A DNA stretch of 64,000 nt from the NCBI RefSeq assembly GCF_006345805.1, contig NC_043004.1, positions 78,988,001-79,052,000 on the forward strand, written 5' to 3'. The stretch comes from Octopus sinensis. Lineage: Eukaryota. The position numbers were made by a program. Positions 3,001 to 57,000 of this stretch are shown piece after piece. Each line of letters starts with the position of its first letter. The first letter of the stretch is position 1.

Positions 3001-6000
3001 GCTTCGCTATCTGAACTTAGCTTTATGCACTCAAAATTGTGTTTCTGTGTCAGCTTGTCTCAAATTCACTCTTTCCCTCTCTCTCCCTCCCTTCCTCTCC
3101 CACTCTCTCTCTCTCTCTCTCTCTCTCTCTCTCTTCATATATATATATATGCATACATACATACATCTATTCATACATATAACGGTTACGTTCCACAGAC
3201 AGATCCGGTTATAGTGTCTACTGTACGCATGTTGTGCGTAACTCCCCTAAGAAAACCTGGAAGGGGATTTATCACTCATTTTATGATGCTCTCTAATGTA
3301 GAACATTTAATAGACAGACTGTATGTATTAGAAATTCTTTACTACATGACCATGAAATTTATATATTTCTTCCCTATGTATACCAATACATACATTTATA
3401 TGCACATACATACGTGTGTACATATATTTTGAGTGATGCATATAGGTAAATAGAACTCAAAACATGGACATATATATATATTATATATAATATATATATA
3501 TATATAATATATATTAATATATATAGTTTTGCGCGTGTGTGTGTGTGTATACGACGGCTTCCACACGGTCTTCGTCTTCCTAATTCACTTACAAGACTTC
3601 GACCGGACCTCCGATTGCGACGGCGATTTGTGCTCCAGTTGGTCCAATCAACAGAACACCCTGCTCGTGAAATTCACATGCAAATGGCTGAGTACTCCAC
3701 AGTTTCGTGTAGCTTTAACGTAGTTTTCAGGGACATTCAGCATGACACCAAATGTGACAAGGCTGGCCTTTCTCATTTTGGTCATTTGACTGAAGTGGAG
3801 CAAGTTGAAAAAAAGTGTCTTGTTCGAGGACACGACACGCCGCTGAGAATCGAAGTCACGACCTTACAAACGTGGGGGGAATTTCCACTAAGCCACGCAC
3901 GTGCATAAGACACTGCGTTGTGGGGGCCGAACTCGATACAATGAACACACGCACAAACACACATACACTCTCCTTCCCTCTTCCTGCCTTTCTCTCTCTC
4001 ACTCTCTGTCCCCTCTCCCCCTGTGTGTGTAAATATAATATATATACATATGCATACATCCATACATAAATATATATATATATAGATATATATATATATA
4101 TATACATGAATGTATTTATATATGTGTGCGTTGTGTGTGTATGTGTATGTATATGTATAATGTATATATCTATATATATATATATATATATATATATATA
4201 TATACTGTATGTGTATTTGTGTTGTGTGTGTGTGTATATATATATATATATGTTTGTTGTGCGTGGTATATATATGTATATATATAAATTAGAAAAACCC
4301 ACGTTTTTATCAATTCAAATGAACGATTAAATTACACCATCTAGAAAATTACATTATAATAGAAATATTAACATTAAAATAACAATAAAATGTCAAAGAT
4401 TAAGTAAATTTACTTAATCTTTGACATTTTATTGTTATTTTAATGTTAATTGATAAAATGTGCGTTTTTCTAATTTATATATATATATTATATTGTGTGA
4501 AATTTGATTTAGTACTTCTAAATTGAATTTGCTTTCCTTGTAAGTTTTGGATTTTAGTCCCTCAAATATTAATAATTATATATATATTATATATATATAT
4601 ATAATATATATATATATATATATATATATATATAATATATATATATATATATATATATATATATATATATATTTCTTTTCTCTTTTCAAAAAGTGACTCT
4701 CCCAGCCTTCACTATTCTTTCGTTCTGGTCTAACGACCCTCCATGTTTGTTTTCGCTCGGTTTACTTGTATGTCTCCACTATTATTCTTTTGTTCCCAAC
4801 TTTGACCCTCCATAAATCGTAAATTTTATTTTAGAATTCATGGAAGCTACTGTCTTTGAAGACTCATATTGTCGTTTGAATGATCGAAATGAGGAGTAGA
4901 TAGACAACCGACAACTGATGAAGGGTCCTTTTTCTGTGTTAACTTGTCCTGTTTTCCATTTTTTCCCCGTTGTTTCCGTATTTCACTCGTTTTCATCCTG
5001 TAATAACTGTCCACGTCTTGTATCTATCTCTCTTGTGTATGTTATTTGCACTGTTGGTGACGTTCTGTACCCATATATGCATGCATATGTATGTGTGTGT
5101 ATATTATATTATATATATATATATATATATGATATATATATATATATGTATATATATATATATATATATATATGTATATATATATATATTATATATAATA
5201 TGTATATATATATATATGTATTATAGTATATATATATATATGTATATATATATATATGTAGATATATGTATATAATATATATAGATATATATATATATAT
5301 ATTATATAAATATGTATATATATATATGTATATATATATATATATATATATATATATATATTATGTATATATATATAATATATATATATGTTATATATAT
5401 ATATATATATATATATATATAGTATATATAATATATATATATATATATAATATATATATTATATATATATATATTATGTATATATATATGTATATATATA
5501 TATATATATATATATGTATATATATATGTGTATATATAGATATATTATATATAGCTATATATGGTATATATATATATATATATATATATATATATATATA
5601 TATATATATATTGTATATAGTATATATATATATATATATATATATATATATATATAATGTATATATATATATATATGTATATATATATATATATATGTAT
5701 ATATATATATATATATCTATATATATATATATAATGTATATATATATTATTATATATATATATGTAATATTATAGATATATATATATGTATATATATATA
5801 ATATTTATATATTATATATATATATATATATAAGTGTATATATATATATATATATGTATATATATAGATATATATATATATGTTATATATATTATATATA
5901 TGTATATATATAGATATAATATGTATATATATATATATATATATGTATATATATATATATATAATGTATTTATATATATATATATGTATATATATATACT

Positions 6001-54000: not shown

Positions 54001-57000
54001 GTTAATAGATAAAAATAAGTGTAATTCTTTTTATTATTTAGTAGATATTTTTTATGTTTTTTAATCTGGGAGGGGTGGGATTTTTAATTACAAATAGAAA
54101 TACGTGGTCGGAAAAGGAAAATAAGTTGTTTTTTCTACATCTGAATATTATCAATAGTAAATCTCTGACCGAGATGTAAACAGTAACTGCACGACAATGT
54201 AAAGTATACTAGCCATCTCAATATGGCTAACCACTAAGGGTGGGTGTTACTGTAGCTTGTAGCCCCAGGAGATCATCGTCTACAGCTGGCTTTAGGCACA
54301 CAAAGGGATGTCCTCCCTTTCCAAATACCATAAGGGCACAGAAAGTGTGCCTAAAGCCAGCTGGAGATGATGATCTCCTGTGGCTACAAGCTACAGTAAC
54401 ACCCACCGTTAGTGGTTAGCCATATTGAGATGACTAGTATACTTTACATTGAATATTATCATAATATAGAAATACATTATAATCCGTTTAATGTGCGTAC
54501 GTACATACGTGCATATTTGCATATTTGTATATTCTATCAATATACAATATCTATAGAAATAGATATTTCTGCACATTGCGAACCATATTAATTCTCTATG
54601 TATATATTCTCTCTATCTATCTACCCCCTCTCTCTCACTCATCTCTATATATAGTGAAGGCGCATGGCTTAGTGGTTAAGGTGTTGCACTCACGATTACA
54701 AAATCGTGGGTCCGATTCCCAGGCCGGGCGTTGCGTTGTGTTCTTGAGCAAAGCACTTCATTTCACGTTGCTCTGCGATCATTTCTTCATCCGGTGACGT
54801 ATGTTGTACCTGTACAGGTAATGTAGGAGAGTCCATTATATATATATATATATATATGTGTGTGTGTGTGTGTGTGTGTATATATATATATATATATATA
54901 TATGTATATATGTATATATATACACACACACACACATATATATATATATATAGTTGAGGTGTATTCAGTTAAGAACCTATTAGATTCAAAGGAGCCAACT
55001 GGATGTGATAGCATCGAAATCAAAAATTCATTTACGGAGACAGCGATTATATATCACCTGAGGAAATATAACTAGGTCCTATTATACAGGTAAACAGTTA
55101 CTTAATTTAAATTTAAATCCAGCATTTATGTGAATCTAAGTTGTGTCGAAACACGTGTAGTGATATTTAAACACCTGTCGAATCGTAGTCCCTGTTCCTT
55201 TTGACTCTATTTATTCTTTCCTTTATACACACACACACACACACATACACACACACACACACACCACACACACACACACACACACACACACACATATATA
55301 TATAATGGACTCTCCTACATTACCTGTACAGGTACAACATACGTCACCGGATGAAGAAATGATCGCAGAGCAACGTGAAATGAAGTGCTTTGCTCAAGAA
55401 CACAACGCAACGCCCGGCCTGGGAATCGGACCCACGATTTTGTAATCGTGAGTGCAACACCTTAACCACTAAGCCATGCGCCTTCACTATATATAGAGAT
55501 GAGTGAGAGAGAGGGGGTAGATAGATAGAGAGAAATATATACATAGAGAATTAATATGGTTCGCAATGTGCAGAAATATCTATTTCTATAGATATTGTAT
55601 ATTGATAGAATATACAAATATGCAAATATGCACGTATGTACGTACGCACATTAAACGGATTATAATGTATTTCTATATTATGATAATATTCAATGTAAAG
55701 TATACTAGTCATCTCAATATGGCTAACCACTAACGGTGGGTGTTACTGTAGCTTGTAGCCACAGGAGATCATCGTCTCCAGCTAGCTTTAGGCACACTTT
55801 CTATGCACTTATGGTATATATATATATATATATATATATATATATATATATACGTATATACGTATGTAGGTATGTGCTTAACAGAACTCACGCGGGAGTA
55901 TTATAACAGGTTTGTATAAATAAGTGAAATACAAAATTTCCTGGTATAACTTATTCATCTCTTACATTACATATTGAATTAAACATAATTCATTCTTGGA
56001 TTATTTTGCCAACATAACGACAGAAAATATAATTATTGCTTCTCTCATTCTGTGATATAGATATAGTTTTGTTGCCGTTAGTATAATGACAAAGTTTTTT
56101 AACGTCTAGAATATATTTCTCATCTCAGACTTACGTGCGTGTAAGTTATATATATTTCTTTATTGCCCACAAGGGGCTAAACATAGAGGGGATAAACAAG
56201 GACAGACAAAGGGATTAAGTCGATTACATCGACCCCAGTGCGAAACTGGTACTTAATTTATCGACCCCGAAAGGATGAAAGGCAAAGTCGACCTCGGCAG
56301 AATTTGAACTCAGAACGTAACGACAGACGAAATCCCTGCTAAACATTTCACCCGGCGCGCTAACGTGACTGCCAAGTTGTATAACCCGTTAGTCGTGAAA
56401 GTATTCGTGAGATTTTGTCTTCATGTGCTGCGTGGAAGATCAGCGAGCGATACCCATCATAGTCTTGCTCATACTTGCAGAAATATTCAAAGCAGCAGTG
56501 CACTCAGTACCTGTATATGTAATTAGGGATATCAAAGTCCCTATTTAACGCCCTATACATAGGTATCTTTTAGACATATCTAGGAAATACGAACTGTCGA
56601 ACATCATATAAACGATATCAATTTGTTTCATTTTAAATCTAAAGGACACTATTCAATAGTTCAATGAAATATGATCTTATCAGTATCATATCTTCATGTT
56701 CTGTCTGCTGCTTGAAATCAAAGATTTTTCCAGTTTATTGTTAATTTTGCCGACAATCTGCTGCATACAAATAATTCAAGAGCGAAAATTTTTATGTCAT
56801 AGCTTGGAAGATGCACCAAAAGCTTTTGTTCTTCAATATTATGTAATTGCATTCATGATGATGATGATGATGATTTAGAAATAACCGAGGAAACTGGAAA
56901 ACCATCAGAACGTAGCCAGACAGAAGAAAAGACTACAGAACGCAAAGGTGACATGTGTTCCCGTGGTGATTGGGTCGTCGTTGGTACAGCACCCAAAGTG

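What the first reader, a model, noticed from the sequence alone, without database searches (positions are those of the whole stretch)
4286..55817. Recurrent long fold-back (inverted-repeat) inserts at (TA)n tracts, possibly a PLE-driven hairpin-forming class
Seen: unrelated inverted repeats at 4286-4476, 7792-7880, 8063-8225, 19704-20344, 42583-42778, 52222-52438, 54195-54451 and 54325-55817, nearly all abutting (TA)n. Arms run 40-550 bp and share no terminal motif, so they do not look like one MITE family. Most arms differ by a few substitutions, which argues against simple read chimeras. Established: PLE insertions often carry an inverted, truncated pLTR copy, exactly as at 26829-29026. Inference: these are abortive or non-autonomous PLE products made by fold-back or template-switch priming, making (TA)n a hairpin-generating hotspot.
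Basis: partly seen in the sequence, partly recalled or inferred. Interest (0 to 1): 0.75.

Follow-up and report, generated by a model that had tools for sequence, protein, structure and literature searches.

The report
Fold-back hairpins beside (TA)n microsatellites
A cephalopod-like genome stretch holds many real hairpin-shaped inverted repeats sitting right next to TA microsatellites; they are not one transposon family, and the only ones whose origin can be traced come from a LINE retrotransposon and from local DNA rather than from Penelope-like elements.

Summary
All eight inverted repeats exist at the stated coordinates. Arms are 42-550 nt and 88-100% complementary, and differences are mostly substitutions. 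Seven of eight have an end 0-1 nt from a (TA)>=6 tract, against about 1% per side by chance.

The 26829-29026 element is a true Penelope-like element (PLE): RT plus GIY-YIG relatives, inverted 250-nt terminal copy, exact 13-bp target duplication. It is not in a TA tract, and no hairpin resembles it or carries a hammerhead.

The 1.5-kb palindrome has arms of ordinary local DNA, including a dispersed SINE-like repeat and part of an older hairpin.

Six small hairpins (A-F) stay anonymous. They have no second copy in the window, no shared terminal motif, only TA-type "duplications", and loops down to 5 nt.

Best reading (about 0.4): fold-back copying anchored on self-complementary (TA)n, with mixed templates. 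Main rival (about 0.3): TA-targeting palindromic MITEs. A PLE-only origin is about 0.1.

Copy number could not be checked because no eukaryote genome was available. This is a new variant of known kinds, of moderate interest.

The parts
4268..4493 (.). Hairpin A. Outer arms are 48 of 54 matched. An off-centre perfect 84-nt palindrome lies at 4367-4450. TA runs flank both sides.
7792..7880 (.). Hairpin B. Arms 42 nt (37 of 42), loop 5 nt. (TA)14 at 7767-7794 lies on the left; only TAT follows on the right.
8063..8225 (.). Hairpin C. Arms 65 nt (60 of 65), loop 32 nt. (TA)14 at 8034-8061 lies on the left; there is no TA on the right.
19704..20344 (.). Hairpin D. Arms 200 nt (4 substitutions, 0 indels), loop 240 nt. 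A TA tract ends at 19708 on the left; ATATA follows on the right.
42580..42781 (.). Hairpin E. Arms 90 nt (84 of 90), loop 22 nt. (TA)13 at 42780-42805 lies on the right; TATA precedes on the left.
52213..52448 (.). Hairpin F. Arms about 115 nt (0 substitutions, one 2-nt indel), loop 5 nt. (TA)24 at 52438-52485 lies on the right; ATATATA precedes on the left.
54195..54451 (.). Hairpin G. Arms 107 nt (102 of 107), loop 43 nt. No TA tract and no target duplication. Its right arm is part of the left arm of H.
54325..55817 (.). Palindrome H. Arms are about 550 nt and contain a dispersed SINE-like repeat, AT-rich unique DNA and one arm of G. The centre (54917-55223) is unique DNA with (TA)n. (TG)n and (AC)n lie at the inner arm ends. 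The right end abuts (TA)n at 55815. The left end lies inside the loop of G.
29896..30066 (.). Mini-hairpin made of two 70-80-nt 3' ends of LINE X, head to head with tails outward. TA flanks both sides and there is TA filler at the centre.
29987..30246 (.). Tail-to-tail palindrome: X4, then (TA)50, then X2, so the TA tract is at the centre.
5999..6534 (-). LINE X copy X1. It holds the 5'-truncated end of ORF2 and a 3'UTR. Its tail (TCAAAGTA)3 runs into about 900 bp of (TA)n at 5100-5998.
6827..7023 (+). LINE X copy X5, 3' end only, inverted relative to X1 (28 substitutions in 192 columns). With X1 it forms a 1-kb fold-back around (TA)n(TG)n.
30168..30694 (-). LINE X copy X2. It ends at the same 5' base as X1. 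It differs from X1 by 6 substitutions and 26 indels of 1-2 bases.
26829..29026 (+). Degenerate Penelope-like element K. Inverted 250-nt terminal copy at 26857-27106; RT and GIY-YIG remnants at 27161-28775; terminal region at 28737-28977. Exact 13-bp target duplications lie at 26816-28 and 29027-39. It is not in a TA tract.
52669..52820 (-). A 150-nt 3' end of a second LINE (Y, tail (TATC)n), sitting inside an (AGAT)n microsatellite. This looks like targeting of a microsatellite that matches the tail. There is no fold-back.

Best explanation
The hairpins are not one mobile-element family. They are products of fold-back (head-to-head) copying that ends in, or starts from, a (TA)n tract.

(TA)n is its own reverse complement. 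A 3' end made of TA can therefore pair with a TA/UA site on either strand, or on the strand just made. Whatever is being copied at such a tract can then be copied a second time in the opposite direction.

Shown here:
1. The 3' end of an APE-type LINE (X) lies directly on (TA)n in 5 of 5 copies. It forms head-to-head and tail-to-tail inverted pairs there.
2. A PLE (K) made the same head-to-head architecture in a single insertion bounded by one target duplication.
3. The largest palindrome (H) copies ordinary local chromosome sequence, joins (TA)n at one end, and has (TG)n/(AC)n at the inner ends of its arms.

Inferred:
- The six anonymous hairpins A-F arose the same way. One route is snap-back or twin priming of a retroelement cDNA during target-primed reverse transcription into a TA tract. 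The other is snap-back synthesis during repair of a break in the tract. I cannot tell RNA from DNA template for these six and rate the two about even.
- The short TA run at the far end of each hairpin would be the microhomology used for the last join.
- The 5-nt loops would be the turn of the snap-back.
For: - Association with TA tracts is far above chance.
- A-F are mutually unrelated, and none has a second copy in 64 kb (0 of 7 hairpins A-G).
- Three of the hairpins (B, F and the inner palindrome of A) have loops of 0-5 nt, the physical minimum.
- A long TA tract lies on one side only in B, C, D, E, F and H, with 0-3.5 TA units on the other side.
- C and G have no possible target duplication.
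- LINE X: its reading frame matches residues 832-899 of a 1006-aa protein with Exo_endo_phos_2 and RVT_1. Its tail (TCAAAGTA)3 meets (TA)n at all 5 termini.
- K: a 13-bp exact duplication brackets both the inverted copy and the body.
- H: the arms hold a repeat also present at 15180, 37883 and 47079. The left arm starts inside the loop of G.
- LINE Y, whose tail (TATC)n is not self-complementary, sits in a matching (AGAT)n and shows no fold-back.
- Two ordinary short-TIR elements (21364-21707 and 51811-52055) lie outside tracts and look different, with 25-36-nt arms and 173-294-nt interiors.
Against: - No parent element, RNA or empty site was seen for A-F. The mechanism for them is an analogy.
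- Read away from the TA tract, the termini of A-F are A-rich: 5 of 6 have an A-minus-T skew >=6, against 18% of 152 tract flanks. LINE X has the opposite polarity (-5 and -7). If A-F were copied from RNA primed on TA, those RNAs would end U-rich, which no model here predicts.
- Fold-back insertions described at breaks are mostly 5-34 bp (PMC11724301, abstract as listed). That is much shorter than these arms.
- The idea that each hairpin plus a 40-160-nt extension forms one unit between two TA tracts is not significant: 4 of 6, with a background of 0.24-0.35 and p about 0.07 by my arithmetic.
- TA-type flanks at A, B, D, E and F are equally what a TA-duplicating transposon would leave.
- X1 and X5 are only 85% alike and may be two separate insertions.
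- X2, X3 and X4 differ only by indels, so that stretch may be poorly assembled.
Confidence: 0.4

Rival explanations
1. A-F (and perhaps G) are palindromic miniature DNA transposons (MITE or foldback type) from many families. They duplicate TA, or target TA microsatellites, as Micron, MuTAnT and the pineapple mt-MITEs do in plants.
For: - They have terminal inverted repeats reaching the ends, small size and AT-rich ends.
- TA lies directly outside the arms in A, B, D, E (one mismatch) and F.
- TA-microsatellite-targeting MITEs are documented. About 74% of two pineapple families are flanked by (TA)n on one or both sides (PMC8449440, passages). See also the MuTAnT abstract.
- Tc1-Mariner is the largest group among recently active DNA-transposon families in Octopus vulgaris (PMC13282606, passages).
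- The shared A-rich ends could be a loose terminal signature.
Against: - No shared terminal motif beyond composition, whereas known TA-targeting families share their ends.
- Six hairpins give six unrelated sequences, with no second copy in the window.
- C and G lack any duplication.
- TA duplications cannot be told apart from extension of the inverted repeat, because TA is self-complementary.
- The 9-10-bp duplications of Mutator-like elements are not met on the short-TA side (0-7 nt).
- No transposase was found in 213 frames of >=65 aa.
- Loops of 5 nt and a long tract on one side only are not expected from insertion at random within a tract.
- H cannot be a MITE, because its arms contain a SINE-like repeat.
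Confidence: 0.3
2. All of them, including the small ones, are DNA-level inverted duplications of local sequence. They would arise from snap-back synthesis in end joining, or from replication template switching, at fragile (TA)n tracts. No RNA or mobile element would be involved.
For: - H is demonstrably local DNA and shares the small hairpins' geometry: a long TA tract at one end and ATA at the other.
- C and G have no duplication.
- A contains a younger perfect palindrome inside older arms, as repeated template switching would give.
- Two tandem arrays have their unit boundaries in TA tracts (23825-25135 and 36532-37024). This shows that TA tracts rearrange at the DNA level here.
Against: - The arms are several-fold longer than reported fold-back insertions (abstract of PMC11724301).
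- The X fold-backs and K show that retroelement copying also gives this shape.
- The A-rich ends are unexplained.
- TA lies on both sides of A and of the X mini-hairpin.
Confidence: 0.15
3. One reading: the hairpins are abortive or non-autonomous products specifically of Penelope-like elements.
For: - K shows the PLE inverted-copy architecture.
- Naiad PLEs prefer (TA)n, lack hammerheads and are heavily 5'-truncated (PMC8557442, passages).
Against: - No arm matches K.
- No hammerhead was found.
- The identifiable fold-back family is an APE-type LINE.
- K itself is not in a TA tract.
- Cephalopod Naiads are described as long-inactive remnants, while F, H and D are 98-100% alike between arms.
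- H is local DNA.
Confidence: 0.1
4. The structures are assembly or read artefacts, such as fold-back chimeras at TA tracts.
For: X1 and X2 differ by 6 substitutions but 26 indels of 1-2 bases. X2, X3 and X4 differ from each other only by indels. This is the signature of an unpolished long-read consensus around 29.9-30.7 kb.
Against: - A-H differ between arms mainly by substitutions: 4-6 each in A-E, G and H, and 0-1 indels.
- They have unique, non-palindromic loops of up to 307 nt.
- The microsatellite lengths in the two arms of H differ.
- They lie in the interior of a contiguous window.
Confidence: 0.05

Closest known systems
Penelope-like element insertion architecture (pseudo-LTR plus inverted 5'-truncated copy; the Naiad clade's bias for (TA)n). 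Craig et al. 2021, PMC8557442, passages read.
   Same: A head-to-head inverted copy of the element's end, heavy 5' truncation, TA microsatellites as the site, and no hammerhead in Naiads. K in this window is such an element.
   Different: The hairpins have no detectable PLE sequence. The traceable TA-associated fold-backs are from an APE-type LINE. K is outside any TA tract. Several hairpins are much younger than the PLE activity reported for cephalopods.
Twin priming of L1 (inversion with 5' truncation).
   Same: Both cut strands of the target prime on one RNA, which gives an inverted 5' part within one target duplication.
   Different: In L1 the two parts are neighbouring, essentially non-overlapping segments. 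Here the two arms are the same sequence (overlap of 42-250 nt), so a hairpin results. The proposed reason, a self-complementary TA primer, is my inference.
TA-microsatellite-targeting MITEs: Micron (rice; seen only in the reference list of PMC8449440), MuTAnT (PMC4486113, abstract) and Ac-mMITEs (PMC8449440, passages).
   Same: Small inverted-repeat elements flanked by (TA)n on one or both sides, sometimes clustered.
   Different: Those are single families with shared ends and thousands of copies. Here six hairpins give six unrelated sequences with no shared motif, arms filling nearly the whole element, and no evidence of copies.
Fold-back or snap-back templated inverted insertions at double-strand breaks (PMC11724301, PMC5728401, PMC2943611; abstracts only, as listed).
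   Same: An inverted copy of the flank, joined by microhomology. One arm is the original DNA, as in H.
   Different: Reported sizes are mostly 5-34 bp. Here the arms are 42-550 nt and sit specifically beside (TA)n.
Microsatellite-specific non-LTR retrotransposons.
   Same: LINE X with a (TA)n-ending tail in (TA)n, and LINE Y with a (TATC)n tail inside (AGAT)n.
   Different: Fold-back pairs at the self-complementary motif are not, to my recollection, part of that description. My searches found no paper on it, but they were narrow.

Membership tests
Penelope-like element | Reverse transcriptase of PLE type joined to a GIY-YIG endonuclease | tested here: met
   This applies to K only. Frame 27161-27691 has 279 relatives at E<=1e-3, most carrying RVT_1 and some GIY-YIG. 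P0061 has RVT_1 at 106-266 and GIY-YIG at 431-474. Frame 28209-28775 aligns to P0061 385-533 at 37% identity, E 6e-23. Pfam run directly on K's broken frames found nothing.
Penelope-like element | Hairpin arms derive from PLE terminal sequence | tested here: inconclusive
   0 of 7 hairpins (A-G) match K's terminal region, and K's terminal region matches only its own inverted copy. Only one PLE family was available for comparison, and no PLE consensus library was on hand.
Penelope-like element | Hammerhead ribozyme in the pseudo-LTR (canonical clades) | tested here: not met
   Rfam gave 0 hits at gathering score for the whole window. No hammerhead was listed at E<=10 in 3900-8600, 25500-31900 or 28850-29030. 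The core-like string CTGATGA...GAAAC occurs only at 28936-28968 (in K) and at 21793-21817. D, E, F, G and H were scanned only at gathering score.
Penelope-like element | Inverted 5'-truncated copy and body inside one target duplication | tested here: met
   K has an exact 13-bp repeat at 26816-26828 and 29027-29039, the only two occurrences in the window. For the hairpins this cannot be judged, because the flanks are TA.
MITE / foldback DNA transposon | Terminal inverted repeats | tested here: met
MITE / foldback DNA transposon | Target-site duplication of defined length | tested here: inconclusive
   Only TA-type repeats are found, and these are self-complementary and so indistinguishable from arm extension. 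There is none at C, G or H.
MITE / foldback DNA transposon | Many copies with conserved ends | not testable with these tools
   No second copy of A-G was found within the 64 kb.
TA-microsatellite-targeting MITE family (Micron / MuTAnT / Ac-mMITE type) | Members share terminal sequence | tested here: not met
   k-mer sharing among the six termini is no greater than in composition-matched controls: 355 of 1000 null sets reach the observed value for 7-mers and 310 of 1000 for 8-mers.
APE-type non-LTR retrotransposon (element X) | ORF2 homology, 5' truncation, and a 3' tail of short tandem repeats | tested here: met
   27 relatives at E<=1e-3; 19 of them carry RVT_1 and 12 also Exo_endo_phos_2. 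P0005 has Exo_endo_phos_2 at 99-221 and RVT_1 at 521-765, and X aligns to 832-899. The 8-nt tail repeat occurs 3 times at each of 4 termini.
Fold-back templated duplication at a DNA break | One arm continuous with pre-existing flanking sequence | tested here: met
   This applies to H only. The left arm starts inside the loop of the older hairpin G, and the arms contain a dispersed repeat. It is not testable for A-F.

The most novel reading that the evidence does not exclude
In this genome (TA)n tracts may act as general hairpin factories. Because the tract is self-complementary, either strand's 3' end can prime on the same template. Any nucleic acid copied there would then be converted into a long perfect hairpin. 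That includes LINE or PLE cDNA, short RNAs with a UA site, and the broken chromosome itself. Such a process would continually create new unrelated fold-back loci, which are potential sources of hairpin RNA. It would do so only at self-complementary microsatellites.
Probability: 0.2. Interest if true: 0.7.

Novelty: new variant of a known kind. Interest (0 to 1): 0.42.

Why it matters
If the fold-back reading is right, three things follow.

- One simple property of a microsatellite, being its own reverse complement, would decide where a genome creates long hairpins.
- That would link retrotransposition, break repair and microsatellite biology, and it would supply raw material for hairpin-RNA loci in a lineage known for RNA-level innovation.
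- Such hairpins would be called MITEs by structure-based finders and could inflate family counts. They also mark places where long-read assemblies need checking.

If the MITE reading is right, the finding is ordinary.

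Tried and rejected
- **Pfam on 213 stop-to-stop frames >=65 aa** and on 11 long frames. No transposase, RT or GIY-YIG was found. There were only weak zf-RVT matches at 39014-39613 and 39991-40320. K's own frames were also missed, even at E<=10, so a Pfam negative here is weak.
- **Rfam in E-value mode**. It returned only sub-threshold microRNA-precursor matches on the hairpins, which I read as hairpin shape and not family membership.
- **Protein search with D's 105-aa frame**. 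No hit; uninformative.
- **Sensitive blastn of hairpins against the window**. The only outside match of A (51761-51818, 75%) is AT-rich sequence without a clear hairpin. F's weak match to 52489-52543 (67%) is purine-rich low complexity.
- **Systematic target-duplication scan**. It was confounded by self-complementary words inside the arms (AATT, TTAA, AGTATACT).
- **TTAA duplication.** By eye it fits B and C but not A, D, E or F.
- **A shared AAAT(N)AAG-like word** looked significant against the whole window but vanished against A-rich controls.
- **'Hairpin plus extension between two TA tracts'.** 4 of 6, not significant.
- **Scan of all 300 TA-tract boundaries**. It found no further real hairpins beyond A-F and the X mini-hairpin. 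The other 5 hits were microsatellite composites.
- **Literature.** Searches found nothing on TA-associated hairpins in cephalopods. One search failed on syntax and was not repeated.
- **Not done.** The bacterial and archaeal genome collection was not scanned, because it cannot hold this DNA. Supplementary files of the papers were not opened.

Full report
**Setting**

The window is 64 kb with no N. GC content is 17-40%, and it is very rich in microsatellites. It contains tRNA-like SINE copies with 16-17-bp target duplications. It also contains two LINE 3' ends and one PLE.

The best named relative of a LINE frame is from Argonauta hians. The source is therefore probably a cephalopod. This is an inference, not an identification.

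**The observation**

Arms are 42 to about 550 nt and 88-100% complementary. Loops run from 5 to 307 nt.

- Differences between arms are mostly substitutions: 4-6 in each of A-E, G and H, with 0-1 indels.
- F has no substitution and one 2-nt indel.
- These are therefore real sequences that have aged, not read chimeras.

Chance does not produce such structures. There are 18 centres with ungapped arms >=40 nt, against none in 20 of 20 Markov-1 simulations. DNA folding z-scores are -10.7 to -24.5, and 0 of 200 shuffles folded as well.

The link to (TA)n is strong. Tracts of >=6 units cover 4.71% of the window, and a given end lies within 5 nt of one with probability 0.0095. The five that do not are G, the PLE K, two chance pairs of SINEs, and a short-TIR element.

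A scan of all 300 tract boundaries found no further real cases.

**What can be identified**

*K (26829-29026) is a degenerate Penelope-like element.*
- Its frames have hundreds of relatives with RVT_1 and, in some, GIY-YIG.
- Its last 250 nt recur inverted at its left end.
- The whole structure is bracketed by an exact 13-bp duplication. The inverted copy was therefore made in the same insertion.
- It lies in A-rich unique DNA, not in a TA tract.
- It carries a hammerhead-like core string that Rfam does not accept.

*A repeat I call X is the 3' end of an APE-type LINE.*
- It is present at 5999-6534 and 30168-30694, with three further termini.
- Its minus-strand frame aligns to residues 832-899 of a 1006-aa protein carrying Exo_endo_phos_2 and RVT_1.
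- About 290 nt of 3'UTR follow, then (TCAAAGTA)3, which runs directly into (TA)n at all five termini.
- Two short X ends form a head-to-head mini-hairpin flanked by TA (29896-30066).
- X4 and X2 face each other across (TA)50.
- X1 and X5 form a 1-kb fold-back around (TA)n(TG)n.
They show that a non-PLE retroelement gives the same picture.

*H is built from local DNA.*
- Each arm contains a dispersed SINE-like repeat, also present at 15180, 37883 and 47079.
- The left arm begins inside the loop of the older hairpin G.
- The inner arm ends are (TG)n and (AC)n, which can pair.
- The right arm runs into (TA)n, while the left ends at ATA.
- The arms carry 4 substitutions, all within the outer 45 nt, and none in the other 470 nt.

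*A second LINE, Y,* has a (TATC)n tail. It sits inside a matching (AGAT)n and shows no fold-back.

**The anonymous hairpins A-F**

- They match nothing else in the window.
- They encode nothing recognisable.
- They carry no hammerhead.
- They share no terminal word beyond composition.
- Their only possible target duplications are TA runs, which cannot be told from arm extension. C has none.

Three features set them apart from the two ordinary short-TIR elements in the window (21364-21707 and 51811-52055):
1. The arms fill almost the whole element.
2. Loops can be as short as 5 nt (B and F), and A holds a perfect 84-nt palindrome.
3. A long TA tract lies on one side, with only 0-3.5 TA units on the other.

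One further shared feature is unexplained. Read away from the tract, their ends are A-rich (5 of 6 with a skew >=6, against 18% of tract flanks). This is the opposite polarity to LINE X.

**Mechanism**

I rate fold-back copying anchored on (TA)n as the most likely common cause (about 0.4). A TA 3' end can pair with either strand. A template copied at a tract can therefore be copied back on itself, or from both target strands.

This is shown only by analogy, from X, K and H. For A-F I cannot separate an RNA template (twin or snap-back priming during target-primed reverse transcription) from a DNA template (snap-back synthesis in break repair).

The rivals are:
- Many families of TA-duplicating palindromic MITEs (about 0.3). 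Plant precedents are in PMC8449440 and PMC4486113.
- A purely DNA-level origin for all of them (about 0.15).
Against it, passages in PMC8557442 say that cephalopod Naiads are old remnants, and nothing here resembles a PLE except K.
- Artefact (about 0.05).

On the last point, X1 and X2 differ by 6 substitutions but 26 indels of 1-2 bases, and X2, X3 and X4 differ only by indels. The stretch 29.9-30.7 kb looks like a noisy consensus and should be checked in reads.

**What stayed unchecked**

- PLE and other TE consensus libraries.
- Raw reads.
- Supplements of the papers cited.

**Verdict**

This is a new variant of known kinds (retroelement inverted-copy insertions, microsatellite-associated fold-backs). 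It is of moderate interest. The testable idea is that self-complementary microsatellites are where a genome makes hairpins.

Noticed in passing
30168-30694 versus 5999-6534; also 29896-30246: Two LINE X copies differ by 6 substitutions but 26 indels of 1-2 bases (19 missing in the second copy). The three X ends around 30 kb differ only by indels. This looks like unpolished long-read consensus rather than evolution.
   Followed up: partly
23825-25135 and 36532-37024: Two tandem arrays (426 bp x 3.1 and 223 bp x 2.2, 94-97% alike) have unit boundaries that fall in (TA)n tracts. TA tracts therefore also seem to mediate direct duplications.
   Followed up: partly
52669-52820, with 39188-40877: A 150-nt 3' end of a LINE with a (TATC)n tail lies inverted inside an (AGAT)n microsatellite. 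This suggests targeting of a microsatellite that matches the tail. The same LINE end is tandemly duplicated at 39188-40060 and 40060-40877 and gives weak zf-RVT matches.
   Followed up: partly
54335-54368 / 55774-55807: All 4 substitutions between the arms of H lie in the outermost 45 nt, and none in the remaining 470 nt. A three-way comparison by eye with the third copy (the left arm of G) shows one private change on each arm.
   Followed up: partly
4367-4450: A perfect 84-nt palindrome with no spacer sits off-centre inside the older hairpin A, whose outer arms are 89% alike. The left arm has about 55 nt with no counterpart on the right. This suggests a second, later fold-back event at the same place.
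   Followed up: no
first 25 nt of hairpins A-F next to the TA tract: All six hairpin ends are A-rich when read away from the tract (A-minus-T skew +3 to +11). LINE X is the opposite. None of the models considered explains this.
   Followed up: partly
21364-21707 and 51811-52055: Two ordinary MITE-like elements, with 25- and 36-nt inverted ends, 294- and 173-nt interiors and TA or TATA flanks, lie outside TA tracts.
   Followed up: no
26940-27045 and 28800-28900: By eye, the terminal region of the PLE K contains a tRNA-like stretch followed by an ATT/AAT triplet run, resembling a SINE head. ARAGORN and Rfam do not call it.
   Followed up: no
21793-21817: A second hammerhead-core-like string (CTGATGA...GAAAC) lies about 90 nt from the short-TIR element at 21364-21707. 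Two such strings occur in the window against 0.23 expected.
   Followed up: no
11024-11258 and 1826-2407: SINE copies with clear 16-17-bp target duplications and A-rich tails. The first lies next to an older inverted SINE fragment, which gives a chance palindrome (10832-11195). The second is an internally triplicated SINE.
   Followed up: partly
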